Source: Escherichia phage DCP548. From it: DNA of 64,000 bases. The notes under the pieces were generated by a model that made no database searches, was not told the origin of the DNA, and was given only the letters and a program-made list of their open reading frames with translations. The stretch lies in the sequence record PQ671645.1. The stretch is one strand, 5' to 3'. A program made the position numbers and the translations under genes. Positions 3,530 to 60,738 of this stretch are shown here, piece after piece (the first letter of the stretch is position 1; each line of letters starts with the position of its first letter).

Positions 3530-5617
3530 CTATCCTTGGACAAATTTAAACGGAACTGATTCTAAATCCATTAAAGATGCTAACAATTTCAAACCTTTAG
3601 GTGCACTAGTTTTTTCTACAAATGAGGCAAAAGATACCGGCTCATCTGATTCGATTTCACCTGTCATAGCAACTACCTCGCCTGTTTCCATGAGAACATC
3701 ACCATCATAAATGACAGCTTCATCTAACTGGTCTGAGGACATGACTTCAGCTTGAATAAATTTAAGGTTGGATTCTAAACCTGCACCAGTATCAGATGAC
3801 GCATCTGTAATTTTATTTATCTGCAAGAGAATGCCTCTAGGCAAAATAATTTCTTGCTCATTAGGGTGATTACTCAACTGTCCTGGATAAATCACGTTAA
3901 CTTTATGGGCGCCATCAATAGCCCATCCAACGTTAACACGGATTTGTTCTGGTGCATGCATAGCTGTTCTTACTTGACTAGGAGAAATAGTAACACCTTC
4001 GTCATTATTATCAATGTTAAGCTCTTTGCGAACTTCTTCAGGAGCAAGTCCAAGGGCAACGTTCTCTTTAAACCCGCCGAAAATAATAGGAGCTAGTGAA
4101 GTGGAAACATAGTTTCTGAAGTAGAATACCTTATTTTTAACCATTGCTTCGTAAATAGGCATTCTGATAGACTGAGCTCTATATAACGTTAGTCCTTCAG
4201 GTAAACGGTCTCCATTTAAAAACGCCGAATCAAGACCATCAATAGCGCGTTTAACTTCATCTTCATCTGCAACATCGTAAAAATCTGGTTTATAACGACC
4301 TAACAACATATTATTGATATCGATATACGCAGAAGAGGCATATTCACGAATAGCTCGTTTTTCAGCAACAGAGTATTGTTTAGGGTCCCGATTCATTGTT
4401 ATATTAAAGGTGCCTCTAGCCGATTCCCGTGCATAAGTATACATCACATTAGACAAGAACGCTGATTTACGTTGTTTCCAAGTTCTTTCAGATACTTCAG
4501 CTAAAACGTCGTCGGGCAGTTGGAAATTATCACGTCTAAAATCTTCAAACCATTCGTCTTTAATAGAGTCTGCAATTTCATTTGCAGCTTCAACAAAAGC
4601 AGCTAATGCTTTAACAGATGTTGTTTTTTCAGTTTTAATTTTCTTAGCAAACTTTTCTAAAGTTGGCTTAATAACACTACCATAAGAAACTTCATCGGCA
4701 AATTTAAAGGATTCATCAATACGATTATAAATCTTATTTTCGATATCAGCAACTAAAGTGCCTTTTGCTGTGGACGATGCTTGGGCTAGTACGATTTCAT
4801 ATGCTTCAGGAAGTAATTCGGCTGTAGCCGGGCCACTAACTTCTTTAGCAGAATTTTCGTATTTCTGGAATAACTCACCTTCTTGACGGTCAGCTTCTAA
4901 AGATTGACTTGCTGCAATAGCACGACGAGAAATTTTGGTGCGAGCAATAACAGGTTTATCTTTACGTTTTTCTTCTACCGCGGCAATAGAACCGGCGATA
5001 GCCGTTTCTTTGGTGACCTTTTCACCGGTCTTTTTACTCACATAAACTTCGCCAACATCAGAATCTACTTTCGTGTACAACTCTGTGTTAATGTTAGGGA
5101 TGCCTTTAATATCCTCAATGTTGGCATTTTTACGAACCATCATCACATAGGTGTGTTTACCTGTGAATTGATACATTGCCGACAATACTTTAAAACGACC
5201 ACCGGTTTTAGTAGAAACTAAACGAGCAAGAAGAGTTTGAAGCTGCTGTCCACGTCCTTTCAATTTCTTGGTAGGGAACCGGAACAGAACTGCATCCATA
5301 CGAAGAGCTTTAACCTGTTCATATACTGTATTGAAAATGGTGTTGATTGCATCAATAGGAGCAGGACCAAGGCCATTTTTCAATTCAGCGAGATTACCCT
5401 TTTCAGACAGACTCATAATAACAACATGAGCGTATTTGTCGCCAAGTTTAACTTGTTTTACAGCATCGCCTTCAGAAAGGTAAGAGAATAAGCGAACTAC
5501 GATGTTTGTATCGATATCACCAATTTTCCAGACTTGTGGAACTTTAGCTTTAGGGTTCAAATTGACGACAGGAAGACTGCCTTCAGATTCAAACACTTCA
5601 TTTAATTGTTCAGACAT
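3530..5617 (-). CDS. alt: Alt ADP-ribosyltransferase (virion-packaged; modifies host RNA polymerase)
   Basis: 695 aa (T4 Alt about 682 aa); directly downstream of DNA ligase as in T4; C-terminal region carries YRAQ and Ser-rich ART-like motifs; TATAAAT-like late promoter upstream. Confidence 0.8.
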   Translation of the reverse strand: MSEQLNEVFESEGSLPVVNLNPKAKVPQVWKIGDIDTNIVVRLFSYLSEGDAVKQVKLGDKYAHVVIMSLSEKGNLAELKNGLGPAPIDAINTIFNTVYEQVKALRMDAVLFRFPTKKLKGRGQQLQTLLARLVSTKTGGRFKVLSAMYQFTGKHTYVMMVRKNANIEDIKGIPNINTELYTKVDSDVGEVYVSKKTGEKVTKETAIAGSIAAVEEKRKDKPVIARTKISRRAIAASQSLEADRQEGELFQKYENSAKEVSGPATAELLPEAYEIVLAQASSTAKGTLVADIENKIYNRIDESFKFADEVSYGSVIKPTLEKFAKKIKTEKTTSVKALAAFVEAANEIADSIKDEWFEDFRRDNFQLPDDVLAEVSERTWKQRKSAFLSNVMYTYARESARGTFNITMNRDPKQYSVAEKRAIREYASSAYIDINNMLLGRYKPDFYDVADEDEVKRAIDGLDSAFLNGDRLPEGLTLYRAQSIRMPIYEAMVKNKVFYFRNYVSTSLAPIIFGGFKENVALGLAPEEVRKELNIDNNDEGVTISPSQVRTAMHAPEQIRVNVGWAIDGAHKVNVIYPGQLSNHPNEQEIILPRGILLQINKITDASSDTGAGLESNLKFIQAEVMSSDQLDEAVIYDGDVLMETGEVVAMTGEIESDEPVSFASFVEKTSAPKGLKLLASLMDLESVPFKFVQG

Positions 5618-5673: not shown

Positions 5674-5882
5674 TAATCCACAATCGGGAGCAAAGTACGA
5701 TAAACTTCAAAATTAGGGCCTTTTTCGTACCCATTAACGTTATCTACGAAAACCCGATACGAATTTTCATTAGGAAAATCTAATATAATCTGAGAGCAAG
5801 AGGTGGAAACATCTCCACCATCCTTCTTAGCTACAATAACTGTTTCTAAATAAGCTTTCATTATAAACCTGTCTGGGACCAC
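5673..5882 (-). CDS. Hypothetical small protein
   Basis: 69-aa ORF between ligase and alt; start overlaps the ligase stop. Confidence 0.4.
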   Translation of the reverse strand: MVPDRFIMKAYLETVIVAKKDGGDVSTSCSQIILDFPNENSYRVFVDNVNGYEKGPNFEVYRTLLPIVD

Positions 5883-7354
5883 GGTCCAAATACGTCTTCA
5901 AACGAATCCGCTTCTGTTTTATCAAAACGGAACCCTTTAATAATTGGAAGGAAAATACCTACAGTGCCTTCACGTCCTTTAGAATGAACCCAACCATTGC
6001 ATTCACAATCAGCAATACGTCCAATCAATTTACCTTCACGAGCTTCGGTCATTAATCGTTCACGGTCCAAATCATGACGCTCATCTAAAGGAATAAGAAC
6101 CTTTACACCATCAACTGTTTTATGAGTTGTATCTTTAAACCCTGAACCACAATCGGTTGTAATACGACGACAACGTGATACGAGTTCGACACCACCTAAT
6201 TTGTTAGGGTCTTTAGAGTGTTCATAGTATCCTACAACTTCTAAAGCGATATCAATAACTTCTTTAAATTTAATTAGGTTCTTAGAGCGTTTGTTTTCCC
6301 AGTATGAATCACGGTTTTTAAGGATAATACCTTCAAGACCTTGGTCAACATATTTTTTATAAACCACTTTAGCTTCGTCAAGATTACGAACTAACTGATT
6401 TTCAATTGGCTCAATTCGCTTAAAGCCTTCAGCCATATTTTCAAGAGCAGCAAAACGAACATCGTATTTCTGGCCTTTAATTTTGCCATCAGAATAGACT
6501 TCATCTAAAGGAACATAGTCCCAGGCTTGAAGAACCATACCTTCCGCTTCTTTAGGAGAAATAGTCCCTTGAAGAGATTTATTTGCTAAACCATTTGAAG
6601 TGCTACGGTCTGCAACTTGTACTTCTTCGGATTCTTCATTATCACCAAATAAGAACGACAGGTCATTTCCTGAGCTCACAGCCTTTTTAATATCAAATGA
6701 ATGATAAACTAATTCACCGTCGATTAAAACCCCATTAGGGTGTCTTTCACGAGCTTCTTTAGTCATTTCCATTAGTTCATCCGCTAATAGAGTAAGACCA
6801 TGGTATTCGTTACCGGCACGAGAAAAGAATTGAACACCATCATCGCGAACTTCAGCGAAACAACGAGCACCGTCTGCTTTTAATTGGGCAAATGCTGGCC
6901 ATTTAATATTTTTAGTAATCAATTTCTCATCATATGCAGATGCTAACATCTGTGGTTGCAATTGAATAAGTCCAGGCCACACCTTATTCGCGATAGACAC
7001 TGAAGCACCTACTTCAAGGTCTCGCATCATTACACGACGAAGGACTTCTACATCATCAGGTTTACCGTCAGCGATATAACCCATGAGCTCTTTAATTGCA
7101 GCATTACCAGTGAGTTTACGAGTGGCTAATGTGAACTCAATAAAATCCAACATGTCATCTAATTCAAGAAGACCATACGCTTGAGACCTTTCACCTGGTC
7201 CTGGCCATTTCTTAATATAATACTGGATACCACGTGCATATGTTAAACGATACACACGTTCAAGTAATTTGTTGTCCTTATTTTTCTTAAGGATTTCTTG
7301 TTTTGTTTTAGTAGAACCGATCGCAGCTATTTGGTTTAAAATATCTAAAATCAT
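5861..7354 (-). CDS. 30: ATP-dependent DNA ligase gp30
   Basis: 497 aa; N-terminus MILDILNQIAAIGSTKTKQEI and C-terminal FEDVFG motif closely match T4 DNA ligase (487 aa). Confidence 0.95.
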   Translation of the reverse strand: MILDILNQIAAIGSTKTKQEILKKNKDNKLLERVYRLTYARGIQYYIKKWPGPGERSQAYGLLELDDMLDFIEFTLATRKLTGNAAIKELMGYIADGKPDDVEVLRRVMMRDLEVGASVSIANKVWPGLIQLQPQMLASAYDEKLITKNIKWPAFAQLKADGARCFAEVRDDGVQFFSRAGNEYHGLTLLADELMEMTKEARERHPNGVLIDGELVYHSFDIKKAVSSGNDLSFLFGDNEESEEVQVADRSTSNGLANKSLQGTISPKEAEGMVLQAWDYVPLDEVYSDGKIKGQKYDVRFAALENMAEGFKRIEPIENQLVRNLDEAKVVYKKYVDQGLEGIILKNRDSYWENKRSKNLIKFKEVIDIALEVVGYYEHSKDPNKLGGVELVSRCRRITTDCGSGFKDTTHKTVDGVKVLIPLDERHDLDRERLMTEAREGKLIGRIADCECNGWVHSKGREGTVGIFLPIIKGFRFDKTEADSFEDVFGPWSQTGL

Positions 7355-7620
7355 TTGATGTCCTCGATTTTGGTTACGGTTCTATTATAAGCCACTTCAT
7401 CTAGAAGCGATTTCAGCGTTTTCTGATAAGTGGTAATCCATTTACCGAGTCCTTCAACATAGTATTCTGAAATGTAGATGAACCCTTGTTCAACACACTC
7501 TTTAAATATTTCTGCGTCTTTTACTGAACGAAACAATGGCCAGTCTCGAAAGAACATGTTAACGTGACCGTAGTCACGTGTGGTGTTTTTGCCATCTGTA
7601 ATATCATGAACTACAAACAT
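7351..7620 (-). CDS. Hypothetical protein (30.1 position)
   Basis: 89-aa ORF immediately downstream of ligase with overlapping start/stop. Confidence 0.5.
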   Translation of the reverse strand: MFVVHDITDGKNTTRDYGHVNMFFRDWPLFRSVKDAEIFKECVEQGFIYISEYYVEGLGKWITTYQKTLKSLLDEVAYNRTVTKIEDIK

Positions 7621-7622
7621 AA

Positions 7623-8459
7623 TTAACCCTTAGTTGTGCCGTAACCTTGTGGAACTGCCCAATACGGAGGAACAGGATGTTCGCCTACATTAGTGTATCG
7701 CCAATGAGGCAGCATATCGGTTGGTCCTGGAGTTCGCCAGGTGTACGGATTCGACGGAGCGCCAATTTGATTAGGCCATGCACCTGGACTTGTTGCACCA
7801 GATTCTTTAAGCAAATCCGCCAATCGTTTTAAAAGGTCTTCACGATCTGAATCTGAATTATGCTCGGGTGAAACCAAACGAGATTCAATATCATCCCACG
7901 TGTGTACACGTTGTGCAGTGCGAGGAATATCATCACGTTCACCACGAGCCAACCAATAAATCGGTACATTAAGAATTTCTGCCGCATGGTCACAGTGATG
8001 AGCTAAATCGTCAACGTAACAAATCACGTTATATTTTGTTTTAGCTAGTTCAAATAATTGTTCCTTTGACGAATCATGACCACACATCATTACTTCAGAA
8101 AAAGCGCCTGGGAACAAAGCATTCAAATTAAATTGTCTATTCAATCGAGCATCAATTGAATCACCTAGCGCCGTCACGGCTACAAAATTATAGTCTTCTT
8201 TTAGTTTATTGATAACTCGAAGAGCATCCGAATAAGGCGCTAAGTAACGAATAAAATCAGAGCGATTATATTTTTCTATTAATTGTTTACCGAGGTTATC
8301 ATCGGTATTGAATAGTTTACCAGGAGAAATAAATTTTTCGTCCTGAATCATTTTTAAAATATGTTCTAATGGAAGATTATATTTTTGGGCAAAATAAGGA
8401 AGTCCAGATTGCCAGCTTAAACATACACCATCAATGTCAGTCAAAATAGTAGGCTTCAT
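7623..8459 (-). CDS. HAD-superfamily-like hydrolase with Pro/aromatic-rich C-terminal tail (30.2 position)
   Basis: N-terminal TILTDIDGV matches HAD motif I (DxDG[TV]); later ICYVDDLAHH resembles motif IV; last about 55 aa are low-complexity P/W/Y/G rich. Confidence 0.5.
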   Translation of the reverse strand: MKPTILTDIDGVCLSWQSGLPYFAQKYNLPLEHILKMIQDEKFISPGKLFNTDDNLGKQLIEKYNRSDFIRYLAPYSDALRVINKLKEDYNFVAVTALGDSIDARLNRQFNLNALFPGAFSEVMMCGHDSSKEQLFELAKTKYNVICYVDDLAHHCDHAAEILNVPIYWLARGERDDIPRTAQRVHTWDDIESRLVSPEHNSDSDREDLLKRLADLLKESGATSPGAWPNQIGAPSNPYTWRTPGPTDMLPHWRYTNVGEHPVPPYWAVPQGYGTTKG

Positions 8460-8923
8460 AAAGAGTCTCTTAATAGGTTTAACACATCAATAAATTCAGC
8501 TTCAGTTAATATTGTATCATCTTTTGTTAGGTGGCTGGCCATGCTGTGCTTCAAAATTTTTCCTTTAGAGGCTTGTAAGGCATCGCGAAACCCCTTGTTT
8601 TGGATCGCTGCTTCAAAATATGCATTTGTATATAATTCTTTCCATGCTTCAGAGTATCTTGAAAATGGAACTCCTAACCAGAAGAGAGTCCCATGGTCCT
8701 GAGCTCTTGCATAAGACCTTCCAGCTTGCTGTGCGGCCAGTCCTGACAGCCTAAATATACGTCTTTGTTGTTCAACATTTTTCACCTTACATCCTTGGAG
8801 AAATCCTTCAAGACCTCCGAATTGAATACCATCCATAACGAAAGGCCACTGGGCAAAATTACTTAATGCACATGATGGCCATCTAAAATTGCTTCTAATC
8901 TCTAACTCAGACATCTTTAACAC
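8456..8923 (-). CDS. YbiA/NADAR-like (DUF1768) protein (30.3 position)
   Basis: LSNFAQWPF...DGIQFGGLEGFLQGCK resembles the FSNFAAWP...EHYFQAQK core of E. coli YbiA; second conserved block AYFEAAIQNKGFRDAL. Confidence 0.45.
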   Translation of the reverse strand: MLKMSELEIRSNFRWPSCALSNFAQWPFVMDGIQFGGLEGFLQGCKVKNVEQQRRIFRLSGLAAQQAGRSYARAQDHGTLFWLGVPFSRYSEAWKELYTNAYFEAAIQNKGFRDALQASKGKILKHSMASHLTKDDTILTEAEFIDVLNLLRDSL

Positions 8924-9119
8924 TTATAATTTCAACATCAGCCCAATGACCATAAGCCGGTAGACGGTCTTTGATAGATAATCCACCGTCATATTTCAGC
9001 ATTTTAATTGTTTTAGTATATGGTTCAACTTTTCGGACCCATGGGCTTACATCAGTCACACGATACGTAACTTCAACCATTTCTGTACCTAACAATTTCT
9101 GGATTAATTTATTCAACAT
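8907..9119 (-). CDS. Hypothetical small protein
   Basis: 70-aa ORF in the 30.x block, overlapping neighbours by a few nt. Confidence 0.4.
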   Translation of the reverse strand: MLNKLIQKLLGTEMVEVTYRVTDVSPWVRKVEPYTKTIKMLKYDGGLSIKDRLPAYGHWADVEIISVKDV

Positions 9120-9306: not shown

Positions 9307-9360
9307 ATTTTTCCACTTACTAAAGAAATCATTATACTCTAATCCGTCCTTGGATGTAAA

Positions 9361-9975
9361 CTACTTAATGAAATTAATTTCTACAGGATGAACAACAGGT
9401 TGAGCAGTGATATATTGAGTAATTGCTTTCATGACTAGAGCTTCAGAACCAGGATTTTTCTCAACGAATTCACGTGCTTGGTTATGAGCTTCAAGTTCAC
9501 TTAGTAAACCACTTCGTTGACATCCACGGTCTTGAGTACCCTGTTCAGATAAAAAGGCGACGATGTATTTTTCATCGTCATACGGTTTAGGCAGTTGAGC
9601 AAATGTTCCTTTACTTCCGAAAGGAGAGTTATGTCGCCACATAACGCCGTGAGGAGTTTCAACCTTCGTATATTCATGCGGGCCATTTTTCTTAGTTTCT
9701 TGTTGTGGAACTTCATGGACCTTAGGGTTAGGACATTCAATAAAATGCTCATCTAAATCAGTCGAGAATATTAAAGTAAAACAATTACTGAATTTACCAA
9801 CACCAGCCTGATAAATTTTACCTTCAGAAGTTCTAATTTCACAAACTGAGCCAGCATCAGTAACTTCTAAAACTTCAAAAGGCTCGATAAGGTCATATGA
9901 GAACATGTTTTTAAGGCGTGGAGTAATATCCCCATTTTTAAAATTCATTTTATAAAAAGTATTAACTTTAAACAT
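9361..9975 (-). CDS. Hypothetical protein
   Basis: Track ORF 9361..10005 trimmed to Met MFKVNTF (start codon 9973-9975), which has a GAGGAAA Shine-Dalgarno; the extension would run through the hairpin at 9988-10003. Confidence 0.5.
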   Translation of the reverse strand: MFKVNTFYKMNFKNGDITPRLKNMFSYDLIEPFEVLEVTDAGSVCEIRTSEGKIYQAGVGKFSNCFTLIFSTDLDEHFIECPNPKVHEVPQQETKKNGPHEYTKVETPHGVMWRHNSPFGSKGTFAQLPKPYDDEKYIVAFLSEQGTQDRGCQRSGLLSELEAHNQAREFVEKNPGSEALVMKAITQYITAQPVVHPVEINFIK

Positions 9976-10010
9976 AATTTCCTCAGTGGGAGCCGAAGCT
10001 CCCAATTAAA

Positions 10011-58588: not shown

Positions 58589-59335
58589 TTAACCTTTAAT
58601 CAGTTGGAATAATGATGCGCTAAGTGGTAGGCCACGTTTCAATTTTAATTTACCAATGAAACCGATCTTTTCAAAACGTTGCAGACCTTGGATAACTTTA
58701 TCATATGTATCGAAAAGCGATTCAGCATCAGTTAATTTAGTTTTAGTTTTCCAGTCAGAGCCTTTAAGAAGAACGTTGAGTTTAGTAAGTTCATGGCCTT
58801 CTGCTTGATGTGAGCCATTAATGCGTGCTTTCAAAGCAACAATTCTAAGTTTAGATTCGTTAGATAAAGGTTGATTTTTCATCATGTTCGCCATATGCTT
58901 AACACGGTTTTCACGTTTTGCTCGGATTTTTAAAATAGTACCATAAACCTTTTTAATTTGGGCCCATTTCTTCTCGTCGAGATTAAGTTTCTCTACTTTA
59001 CGGGCAGAAGGATTAGCGATACGTCTTGCAATGGCATCACGTTTCTCAATAAGTTCTTCTAATGTTAAATCAGAACGAGCCGTGTTATATTTTTTCTTAA
59101 CTGGGATAACATTACCTTTAATGTAGCCGATATCATTATTAAAACGTTCTAAGGATAATTTCTCACCTTCAACAGAGTTATTGAAAGATTCACCTGAGTA
59201 AGCGCAGACCTTTTGATCAAGAATGTTTTTAAGGTAATTAAAGTCTAAGTTAAAATCCTTAGAGCGTCTCTTCGCAGAAGCTCTGGTGTGGTCAAGACGA
59301 CGATTAATTTTGTTAATTTTATTATTTGATAACAT
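58589..59335 (-). CDS. Hypothetical basic protein at the T4 srd position (Srd-like by position only)
   Basis: 248 aa, Lys/Arg-rich; lies between dda and modA where T4 has srd; no motif-level confirmation. Confidence 0.4.
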   Translation of the reverse strand: MLSNNKINKINRRLDHTRASAKRRSKDFNLDFNYLKNILDQKVCAYSGESFNNSVEGEKLSLERFNNDIGYIKGNVIPVKKKYNTARSDLTLEELIEKRDAIARRIANPSARKVEKLNLDEKKWAQIKKVYGTILKIRAKRENRVKHMANMMKNQPLSNESKLRIVALKARINGSHQAEGHELTKLNVLLKGSDWKTKTKLTDAESLFDTYDKVIQGLQRFEKIGFIGKLKLKRGLPLSASLFQLIKG

Positions 59336-59488: not shown

Positions 59489-60097
59489 TCAGTAACTGAC
59501 AATAGACAGATTCCAGATTGTATAACGTCCATCCTGAATAATAGAATCTACACGCAGTGTAGTCCCTATAGGGAGCATAAATTCACATTCGTCAGATATA
59601 AGTCTAGCATTAGACCGTCTTGTCGCTTCAGGGAAAGCTCCATTGAACTCACAAGATGGCGCAGCCAGAATCATGTTAAGCATATGTTCACGGAAGTTGA
59701 AAGCAAATGGTGCATCTTTGATGCAGAACATATTAAATGTTCCGTAAAAATTATACGAAGCAAAGTTACGTGCTACACCGAACACTGGGCTGAAGCTCAT
59801 TACTCTGTCAAATTTAATAATACTACCAATACCTTTATCATCGAGTGTGGCCATAGTTTTCTTAGAGATTCCACGATACATTGTCTCAGGAACAGAAGAC
59901 GTCCAATTTCTACGAACGATTGAACTTAACTCCTGTTGAATACAGTCTGGCTTGTTTTCCATACACTGCCACAGTACACTTTGTTCAATGTCGCTGAATT
60001 GACTATCAATTTCGTACTGCAATACATCTTGATATTCGGGGTTTTGAGCACGACGAACCATTTCTTCAATTTCACACTCGTTATACGGCATAAACAT
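59489..60097 (-). CDS. modA: ModA-like ADP-ribosyltransferase
   Basis: 202 aa (T4 ModA about 200 aa); ART-like R / S-x-S / E-x-E elements (MYRGISK, SFSPVFG, ECEFML); tandem paralogue of the next gene. Confidence 0.6.
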   Translation of the reverse strand: MFMPYNECEIEEMVRRAQNPEYQDVLQYEIDSQFSDIEQSVLWQCMENKPDCIQQELSSIVRRNWTSSVPETMYRGISKKTMATLDDKGIGSIIKFDRVMSFSPVFGVARNFASYNFYGTFNMFCIKDAPFAFNFREHMLNMILAAPSCEFNGAFPEATRRSNARLISDECEFMLPIGTTLRVDSIIQDGRYTIWNLSIVSY

Positions 60098-60127: not shown

Positions 60128-60157
60128 ATCATAACACCGTCTGTGGTGGTTGTAAAC
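60128..60157 (-). promoter_or_regulatory. T4-type early promoter upstream of modA
   Basis: -35 GTTTAC (plus 60152-60157), 18-bp spacer, -10 TATGAT. Confidence 0.4.
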
Positions 60158-60738
60158 TAAAAATTCAACATCTTTAAGTGAATGATTTTGTATACTCGAG
60201 ACAAAGGGTCATACTCTAACTCTTCGATTTCCACAATCTCAAATCTAGAGATACTTGAAACCATGTACTCTTGTTCAGATTCAATCATATCTAGGACATC
60301 AACACGTGTTTCTTCCATAACATGCTTAGGGTTCTTTCCGGCGAGTACAATATTAACCATGTTTTGGTAGTAATCAAAAATGAATGGAGCATTCCTGAGA
60401 CTAAGAATAGTGTACGTCTGATATTCCCATCTCCCAGAGAATTGACGAGCTGTACTGAAATCAGTTGTGAACGATGTTACTCGTCCAGGAGACCAATGGC
60501 ATCCAACAGAAAGAAGGGAAAGACGTTCTACTTCTTCTGGAGTTACACCACGGTAGAGTTCTACTGGTACTGCAGAAGTCATATGCTTACGAACAAGATG
60601 GTCTAATTCATAGTGGAAATCCGGGTCTTCCTTAGAATCGGTGCAAGCCCAGAGAATGTTTTGTTCTTGGTGGGTGAATTTGCTATCAATCAGATTTGTT
60701 AGGTATTCACGTTCTTGAAGTTCAGATTGACATGTCAT
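60157..60738 (-). CDS. modB: ModB-like ADP-ribosyltransferase
   Basis: 193 aa; paralogue of the adjacent gene (LYRGVTP, SFTTDFSTARQF); T4 map position. Confidence 0.6.
   Translation of the reverse strand: MTCQSELQEREYLTNLIDSKFTHQEQNILWACTDSKEDPDFHYELDHLVRKHMTSAVPVELYRGVTPEEVERLSLLSVGCHWSPGRVTSFTTDFSTARQFSGRWEYQTYTILSLRNAPFIFDYYQNMVNIVLAGKNPKHVMEETRVDVLDMIESEQEYMVSSISRFEIVEIEELEYDPLSRVYKIIHLKMLNF

What the first reader, a model, noticed from the sequence alone, without database searches (positions are those of the whole stretch)
8456..8923. YbiA/NADAR-like ORF in the 30.x block: possible ADP-ribosylation-reversing (anti-DarT-type) function
The 155-aa protein carries the SNF...WP and G..F...E.F.Q..K blocks of the YbiA/DUF1768 (NADAR) family. 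NADAR enzymes have been reported to remove ADP-ribose from guanine bases and to counter DarT-type toxins. The phage also encodes three ADP-ribosyltransferases (Alt, ModA, ModB), so the gene might serve either as an anti-defence factor or to manage ADP-ribose chemistry.
Basis: partly seen in the sequence, partly recalled or inferred. Interest (0 to 1): 0.55.

Follow-up and report, generated by a model that had tools for sequence, protein, structure and literature searches.

The report
Known anti-DarT1 enzyme AdfN (gp30.3)

Summary

T4 gp30.3 has been published as AdfN (Nat Commun 2025;16:1598). It is a guanine-specific DNA ADP-ribosylglycohydrolase that T4 and T2 need in order to grow on DarTG1 hosts. 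Toxins 2024 and a 2025 transposon screen confirm this independently. The window allele lacks the frameshift that truncates RB69's copy.

The anti-DarT interpretation is supported. The finding is already known and of low interest.

The parts
8456..8914 (-). adfN (gene 30.3) coding sequence, 152 aa plus a TGA stop. It encodes a phage-type NADAR DNA ADP-ribosylglycohydrolase.
8915..8923 (-). They are probably not translated.
   Evidence: T4 and pEK20 annotate the ATG start and a 152-aa product. With the ATG start, the numbering of E36 and K43 matches the published T4 mutants.
8843..8863 (-). The S18-N19-F20-A-Q-W23-P24 block, the N-terminal NADAR motif.
   Evidence: A16, L17, S18, N19 and F20 are invariant in 61 homologues. 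This block aligns to the FSNFAAWP block of E. coli YbiA, 2b3w.
8786..8830 (-). The G29..F32...E36.F38.Q40..K43 block. It carries the catalytic Glu36 (8807..8809) and Lys43 (8786..8788).
   Evidence: E36, G37, F38 and Q40 are invariant and K43 nearly invariant. E36A and K43A impair T4 AdfN (PMC11825919). Codons checked.
8546..8548 (-). His123. It directly follows the last beta-strand (120-122) of the model. It is the phage-NADAR counterpart of the catalytic Glu of the YbiA family and the Asp of the DarG1/BC4488 family.
   Evidence: H123 is invariant in 61 homologues. Strand E120-122 in the model. The literature states that phage NADARs have His at this position (PMC11543638; PMC11125620).
8462..8503 (-). 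C-terminal alpha-helix, residues 138-151. It is intact here and lost in RB69 through a +T frameshift at gene position 411.
   Evidence: Helix H138-151 in the model. DNA alignment shows the extra T only in RB69 (column 420). Protein alignment shows RB69 ending at T137. T4 AdfN truncated at the same point has reduced activity.
7623..8459 (-). Downstream neighbour, gene 30.2 (278 aa, function unknown). Its ATG overlaps the adfN stop as ATGA.
   Evidence: Same position as in T4, RB69 and pEK20. phrog_420, unknown function. Some records annotate it as HAD-like or putative phosphatase.
8907..9119 (-). Upstream neighbour, gene 30.4 (70 aa). Its stop overlaps the adfN start as ATGTCTGA.
   Evidence: Synteny with T4 30.4. 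phrog_2042.
9331..9360 (-). Sigma-70-like site TTTACA-18-TATAAT, 11 of 12 matches, upstream of the 30.5-like ORF. It is a candidate early promoter for the tightly packed 30.5-30.4-adfN-30.2-30.1-30 gene string.
   Evidence: This is a consensus scan only, and the number of sites in the region is not above the shuffled expectation. It is inferred, not shown.

Best explanation
Window 8456..8914 (minus strand) is an intact orthologue of T4 gene 30.3, published as adfN (anti-DarT factor NADAR). The 152-aa product is a minimal, core-only NADAR-fold N-glycosidase.

The mechanism is as follows. On infection of a DarTG1 host, the DarT1 toxin ADP-ribosylates guanine bases in phage DNA and blocks replication. 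AdfN is made from the early-region gene string downstream of 30.9 and upstream of the ligase gene. It hydrolyses the bond between ADP-ribose and guanine and restores unmodified DNA, so replication proceeds. It works enzymatically and does not bind DarT1. Catalysis uses Glu36, Lys43 and the phage-specific His123, and full activity needs the C-terminal helix. It is specific for guanine-ADPr (DarT1) and does not act on thymine-ADPr (DarT2). It appears effective only in the context of T-even infection.

Shown here: identity to T4 AdfN, the intact reading frame, the conserved residues and the NADAR fold. Shown in the literature for the T4 protein: enzymatic activity and the counter-defence role. 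Inferred: that this allele, with six substitutions, behaves the same way.
For: 96% identity (146/152, no gaps) to T4 gp30.3. 100% identity to Mosigvirus pEK20. PF08010 matched over its full length at E 2.7e-69.

Synteny alt-alt.1-30-30.1-30.2-30.3-30.4 is the same as in T4 and RB69.

E36, K43 and H123 are present and invariant or nearly invariant across 61 homologues down to 35% identity.

The RB69 frameshift is absent.

31 synonymous against 6 non-synonymous codon differences from T4.

9 of 61 family members hit PF08719 NADAR, best E 1.5e-7. The family profile hits YbiA at E 0.0038.

Experimental literature on the T4 orthologue: PMC11825919 and PMC11257639, PMC11125620, PMC12945103, and the HIDEN-SEQ preprint.

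Bas46 and Bas47, described in the paper as the two closest relatives of RB69, carry full-length 30.3 and resist DarTG1.
Against: This particular allele has not been assayed. It differs from T4 at G55R, R74H, P89E, V120I, I125M and G128H, all at positions that vary across the family.

There is no direct PF08719 hit and no hit to a DarG model in PADLOC.

In the published version, E36A and K43A still gave partial rescue, so the catalytic picture is not complete.

AdfN of T4 does not neutralise DarT1 in uninfected cells. The basis of that context dependence is unresolved.
Confidence: 0.93

Rival explanations
1. The protein mainly degrades small soluble ADP-ribose derivatives rather than DNA adducts. 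Candidates are immune signalling molecules, toxic ADPr metabolites, or by-products of RNA repair.
For: This was proposed on contextual grounds for phage NADAR domains before they were characterised (PMC9503650). NADARs are N-glycosidases with varied substrates. E. coli YbiA-type enzymes act on riboflavin intermediates according to that review.
Against: T4 AdfN removes ADPr from DNA in vitro. Its loss gives a specific four-log plating defect on DarTG1. Insertions in the gene are depleted on DarTG1 but not on plain K-12. No small-molecule substrate has been shown for the phage clade.
Confidence: 0.04
2. The protein tidies up collateral ADP-ribosylation, of nucleic acid or protein, made by the phage's own transferases Alt, ModA and ModB.
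For: Alt lies about 3 kb away in the same transcriptional direction, and two Mod paralogues are in the window. The 2022 survey notes that in T4-like phages NADAR genes are expressed early along with the ARTs.
Against: Alt and Mod target arginine in proteins, whereas the NADARs tested act on base-linked ADPr, on guanine and for some on cytosine. 30.3 is dispensable on hosts without DarTG1. No experiment links it to Alt or Mod.
Confidence: 0.02
3. The protein blocks DarT1 stoichiometrically by binding it, as AdfA(R164H) does, and the hydrolase activity is secondary.
For: In the published version, the catalytic-site mutants E36A and K43A retained partial rescue.
Against: A bacterial two-hybrid assay found no AdfN-DarT1 association, whereas AdfA(R164H) was strongly positive. 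AdfN does not neutralise DarT1 in uninfected cells. The purified protein removes ADPr from DNA.
Confidence: 0.01

Closest known systems
T4 gp30.3 = AdfN, anti-DarT factor NADAR (Johannesman et al., Nat Commun 2025;16:1598; Pfam PF08010 Phage_30_3)
   Same: Same length (152 aa), 96% identity and the same genomic slot between 30.2 and 30.4. The same residues E36, K43 and H123 and an intact C-terminal helix.
   Different: Six substitutions: G55R, R74H, P89E, V120I, I125M and G128H. The host genome is a Mosigvirus (JS09/pEK20-like, the genus of RB69), not a Tequatrovirus.
RB69 gp30.3, a naturally truncated and non-protective allele
   Same: Same genus-level background. The alleles are 95% identical over the shared 137 residues and share E89, I120 and M125.
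   Different: RB69 has a +T insertion at gene position 411 that removes the last 15 residues, the C-terminal helix. The window gene does not have it.
DarG1, the NADAR antitoxin of the DarTG1 toxin-antitoxin system (BC4488 family; Geobacter lovleyi structure 8bat)
   Different: No adjacent DarT gene, so it is an orphan. His replaces the catalytic Asp. It lacks the N-terminal extension: 152 aa against 219 aa. Only 14% identity. The T4 orthologue cannot replace DarG1 in uninfected cells.
E. coli YbiA (2b3w) and eukaryotic NADAR (Phytophthora nicotianae, 8bau)
   Different: About 21% identity. They have Glu where the phage clade has His. They differ in physiological role, and there is no direct PF08719 hit.

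Membership tests
gp30.3 / AdfN clade (Pfam PF08010 Phage_30_3; 'phage NADARs') | Full-length match to the PF08010 profile above its gathering score | tested here: met
   231.7 bits against a cut-off of 36, E 2.7e-69, profile positions 1-138 of 138.
gp30.3 / AdfN clade (Pfam PF08010 Phage_30_3; 'phage NADARs') | Orthology to the characterised T4 protein, shown by high identity and conserved gene order | tested here: met
   146/152 identical with no gaps. The gene lies between 30.2 and 30.4, downstream of the ligase, as in T4 and RB69.
gp30.3 / AdfN clade (Pfam PF08010 Phage_30_3; 'phage NADARs') | Histidine at the position of the catalytic Glu/Asp at the last beta-strand | tested here: met
   H123 is invariant in 61 homologues and directly follows strand 120-122 of the model. 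The criterion comes from PMC11543638 and PMC11125620.
gp30.3 / AdfN clade (Pfam PF08010 Phage_30_3; 'phage NADARs') | Intact C-terminal helix, needed for full activity and lost in RB69 | tested here: met
   No frameshift. Residues 138-152 are identical to T4. Helix 138-151 is present in the model.
gp30.3 / AdfN clade (Pfam PF08010 Phage_30_3; 'phage NADARs') | Protects the phage against DarTG1 and hydrolyses guanine-ADPr in DNA | not testable with these tools
   Shown for the T4 protein only. Inferred for this allele.
NADAR superfamily (YbiA fold; Pfam PF08719) | Direct match to the PF08719 NADAR profile | tested here: not met
   No hit even at E<=10. However, 9 of 61 homologues hit PF08719 (best E 1.5e-7), and the family profile hits YbiA at E 0.0038. 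Pfam models the two groups as separate families.
NADAR superfamily (YbiA fold; Pfam PF08719) | YbiA fold: a helical core flanked by small beta-sheets | tested here: met
NADAR superfamily (YbiA fold; Pfam PF08719) | Conserved ADP-ribose-contacting Glu and Lys in the E.F.Q..K motif | tested here: met
   E36 and K43 are present. They align to the EHYFQAQK block of YbiA and are conserved in the family.
DarG1 antitoxin (DarT-associated BC4488 NADAR family) | Encoded next to a DarT1 toxin gene | tested here: not met
   The neighbours are 30.2 and 30.4. The only nearby ART is Alt (PF03496), which is not a DarT.
DarG1 antitoxin (DarT-associated BC4488 NADAR family) | Aspartate at the catalytic position of the last strand, and N-terminal extension elements | tested here: not met
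   His123 stands in place of Asp. The protein is the 152-aa core only, against 219 aa for 8bat. No DarG model hit in PADLOC.
YbiA family proper | Glutamate at the catalytic position of the last strand | tested here: not met
   H123 is invariant at the position where the literature places the YbiA Glu.

The most novel reading that the evidence does not exclude
The Mosigvirus-type allele might be tuned to arabinosyl-hydroxymethylcytosine DNA rather than the glucosylated DNA of T4. Three of its six differences from T4 are shared with RB69. More broadly, AdfN might have a second natural substrate that explains why it is kept in about 1500 T4-superfamily genomes, many on hosts not known to carry DarTG1. 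One candidate is guanine-ADPr on RNA, which NADARs of all families are reported to remove in vitro (PMC12945103). Another is adducts made by other guanine-directed toxins such as YarT-like ARTs.
Probability: 0.1. Interest if true: 0.4.

Novelty: already known. Interest (0 to 1): 0.1.

Why it matters
The gene can be annotated with confidence as adfN, an anti-DarTG1 DNA ADP-ribosylglycohydrolase, instead of 'hypothetical protein'. Most of the listed phage records that carry a homologue still label it as hypothetical. Because the allele is intact, this phage is predicted to resist DarTG1, unlike its relative RB69. That is useful for host-range prediction and for choosing therapeutic phages. It adds nothing conceptually new. 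The case also carries a methodological warning.

Tried and rejected
1. Direct Pfam NADAR (PF08719) membership: no hit at E<=10. I rejected this as a refutation because fold, motifs and transitive hits all agree.

2. NCBIfam and PADLOC scans gave no informative hit. PADLOC returned only a chance-level match to a type I specificity subunit, E 0.034.

3. PHROGs places the protein in phrog_652, 'unknown function', so that library is out of date for this family.

4. Sequence search of the PDB with the single protein gave only a weak YbiA hit, E 0.34. A family profile improved this to E 0.0038.

5. I rejected it in favour of the ATG, on annotation in T4 and pEK20, residue numbering and overlap with the upstream stop.

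6. I considered whether tblastn rows covering only residues 1-144 (for example UFV10) mark naturally shortened alleles. They do not: the UFV10 gene is full length with an identical C-terminus, so the shorter coverage does not reflect a shortened allele.

7. I considered T4's annotated internal ORF 30.3' as a second product. It is interrupted by a stop here and in RB69.

8. I checked for AdfA (gene 61.2) in the window. It is absent, because the window ends before that gene.

Full report
**Observation**

The ORF exists. The ORF listing gives 8456..8923 on the minus strand, 155 aa from a GTG. The start used in annotated relatives is the ATG three codons downstream (8914..8912), which gives 152 aa. 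That ATG overlaps the stop of the upstream gene as ATGTCTGA. The gene's own TGA overlaps the ATG of the downstream gene as ATGA. This arrangement is typical of translationally coupled T4 early genes.

**Identity**

The window comes from a T4-like phage. The surrounding genes are, in order: Alt at 3530..5617 (PF03496); DNA ligase gp30 at 5861..7354; 30.1 at 7351..7620 (DUF3045); 30.2 at 7623..8459; this gene; 30.4 at 8907..9119; a 30.5-like ORF; then 30.7 and 30.8. T4 and RB69 have the same order.

The best DNA match is Escherichia phage pEK20, a Mosigvirus of the JS09 species, at 99.8% over 801 bases. Its gp30.3 is 100% identical at protein level.

The protein is 146/152 identical to T4 gp30.3 with no gaps. 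It matches Pfam PF08010 'Bacteriophage protein GP30.3' end to end, E 2.7e-69. Compared with T4, 31 codons differ synonymously and only 6 change the residue, so the frame is under purifying selection.

Homologues occur in 1510 phage records across the T4 superfamily. Hosts include Escherichia, Klebsiella, Aeromonas, Acinetobacter, Vibrio and Rhizobium.

**Is it a NADAR?**

Pfam keeps gp30.3 proteins in their own family. Other evidence supports membership of the superfamily:

- The only PDB sequence hit is E. coli YbiA, over the SNF..WP to E.F.Q..K region. It scores E 0.34 with the single sequence and E 0.0038 with a 61-sequence family profile.
- 9 of the 61 homologues hit PF08719 on their own, best E 1.5e-7.
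- An AlphaFold2 model built on that alignment is confident, with pLDDT 93 and pTM 0.88.
- Against the PDB, Foldseek ranks YbiA 2b3w (E 4e-5), Phytophthora NADAR with ADP-ribose 8bau (E 2.1e-2) and Geobacter lovleyi NADAR 8bat (E 8.2e-2) as its top three. Every other match has E>=2.
- E36, G37, F38, Q40 and H123 are invariant and K43 nearly invariant across homologues down to 35% identity.
- H123 directly follows the last strand of the model. This is where the literature places the residue that separates NADAR families: Glu in YbiA, Asp in DarT-linked BC4488/DarG1, and His in phage NADARs (PMC11543638; PMC11125620).

The protein is therefore a member of the NADAR superfamily, in the phage (gp30.3) clade. 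It is not a YbiA proper and not a DarG1.

**What it does**

This is already published for the T4 orthologue.

Johannesman et al. (bioRxiv 2024, PMC11257639; Nat Commun 2025;16:1598, PMC11825919) mapped DarTG1 resistance to gene 30.3 by crossing T2 or T4 with RB69, and renamed the gene adfN. Their main results were:

- Deleting adfN from T4 or T2 costs about four logs of plating on DarTG1.
- Expressing it in trans restores RB69.
- It does not counter DarTG2.
- It shows no two-hybrid interaction with DarT1.
- The purified protein removes ADP-ribose from DarT1-modified DNA.
- The E36A, K43A and C-terminally truncated variants are impaired.

Toxins 2024;16:208 (PMC11125620) showed independently that the T4 NADAR hydrolyses guanosine-ADPr but not thymidine-ADPr in vitro, and that it does not rescue cells from DarT1. 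A 2025 transposon-sequencing preprint found that insertions in 30.3/adfN are lost only on a DarTG1 host.

**Is this allele functional?**

RB69 belongs to the same genus as the window's closest relative. It is DarTG1-sensitive because a T insertion at gene position 411 truncates the last 15 residues. The three-way DNA alignment shows that extra T in RB69 only. The window protein has the full C-terminal helix, identical to T4.

The six differences from T4 are G55R, R74H, P89E, V120I, I125M and G128H. All fall at positions that vary within the family. Three of them, E89, I120 and M125, are shared with RB69. Bas46 and Bas47, described in the paper as the two closest relatives of RB69, carry full-length alleles and are reported DarTG1-resistant.

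I therefore infer, without direct proof, that this allele is active.

**Mechanism, with status of each step**

- DarT1 ADP-ribosylates guanine in phage DNA and blocks replication (literature).
- AdfN is expressed from the early-region gene string. This is inferred from gene order, start/stop overlaps and a consensus promoter-like site at 9360..9331. The number of such sites in the region is not above the shuffled expectation.
- AdfN binds the ADP-ribose moiety through the E36/K43 pocket and cleaves the ribose-guanine N-glycosidic bond, with H123 in the role of the family's third catalytic residue. The fold and residues are shown here. The chemistry is shown for T4 and other NADARs.
- Replication resumes (literature, T4).

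**Rivals**

- A role against soluble ADPr signals or RNA-repair by-products was the pre-2023 prediction for phage NADARs (PMC9503650). The specific DarTG1 phenotype now makes it unlikely as the main role.
It does not fit the base-linked substrate specificity of the NADARs tested.
- Stoichiometric inhibition of DarT1 is contradicted by the two-hybrid result and by the failure to detoxify DarT1 in uninfected cells.

**Verdict**

The function has been in the literature since 2024-2025, so the finding is 'already known' and of low interest.

Two practical points remain. First, most phage records listed still label the gene as hypothetical.

Noticed in passing
window 9361..10005 (-): A 214-aa ORF from TTG (204 aa as annotated in pEK20). 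It belongs to phrog_17531, unknown function, and has no Pfam or NCBIfam hit. It occupies the slot where T4 and RB69 carry the unrelated 95-aa gene 30.6. This is a variable cassette a few genes upstream of adfN and could be another accessory or anti-defence gene.
   Followed up: partly
window 8674..8778 (-), inside adfN: T4's annotated out-of-frame internal gene 30.3' (75 aa) is cut to 34 codons by an in-frame stop in this window, and at the same place in RB69. It is probably not a real gene.
   Followed up: yes
proteins P0010, P0014, P0017, P0052 and others: The protein collection holds many truncated gp30.3 fragments of 83-126 aa. Some also hit families named for other T4 30.x genes (PF06919 Gp30.7, PF06019 Gp30.8) or PF11097. 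This suggests that adfN is frameshifted or recombined in several T-even phages, as in RB69. Such phages would be predicted DarTG1-sensitive unless AdfA compensates.
   Followed up: no
L006:8993-9643 (pEK20, outside the window); RB69 at L007:3003-3641: The closest relative, pEK20, encodes an AdfA (gp61.2) that is 98% identical to RB69's. It has His at the position where RB69 has the non-neutralising Arg164. This lineage therefore probably carries two anti-DarTG1 factors, as T4 does. The window itself ends before gene 61.2.
   Followed up: partly
window 59489..60097 (-) and 60157..60738 (-): Two adjacent Mod-family ADP-ribosyltransferase paralogues lie next to srd (58589..59335). Both resemble T4 ModB more than ModA (30-38% identity), so a one-to-one ModA/ModB assignment is uncertain.
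   Followed up: partly
window 7623..8459 (-): Gene 30.2 (278 aa) is translationally coupled to adfN through an ATGA overlap. It has no Pfam hit and falls in phrog_420, unknown function, but some records annotate it as a HAD-like phosphatase. Whether it cooperates with AdfN, for example by processing released ADP-ribose, has not been tested.
   Followed up: no
literature, not in the window: The HIDEN-SEQ preprint reports that T4 tk.4 encodes a macrodomain anti-DarTG2 factor, AdfM. I did not search the window for a tk.4 homologue.
   Followed up: no
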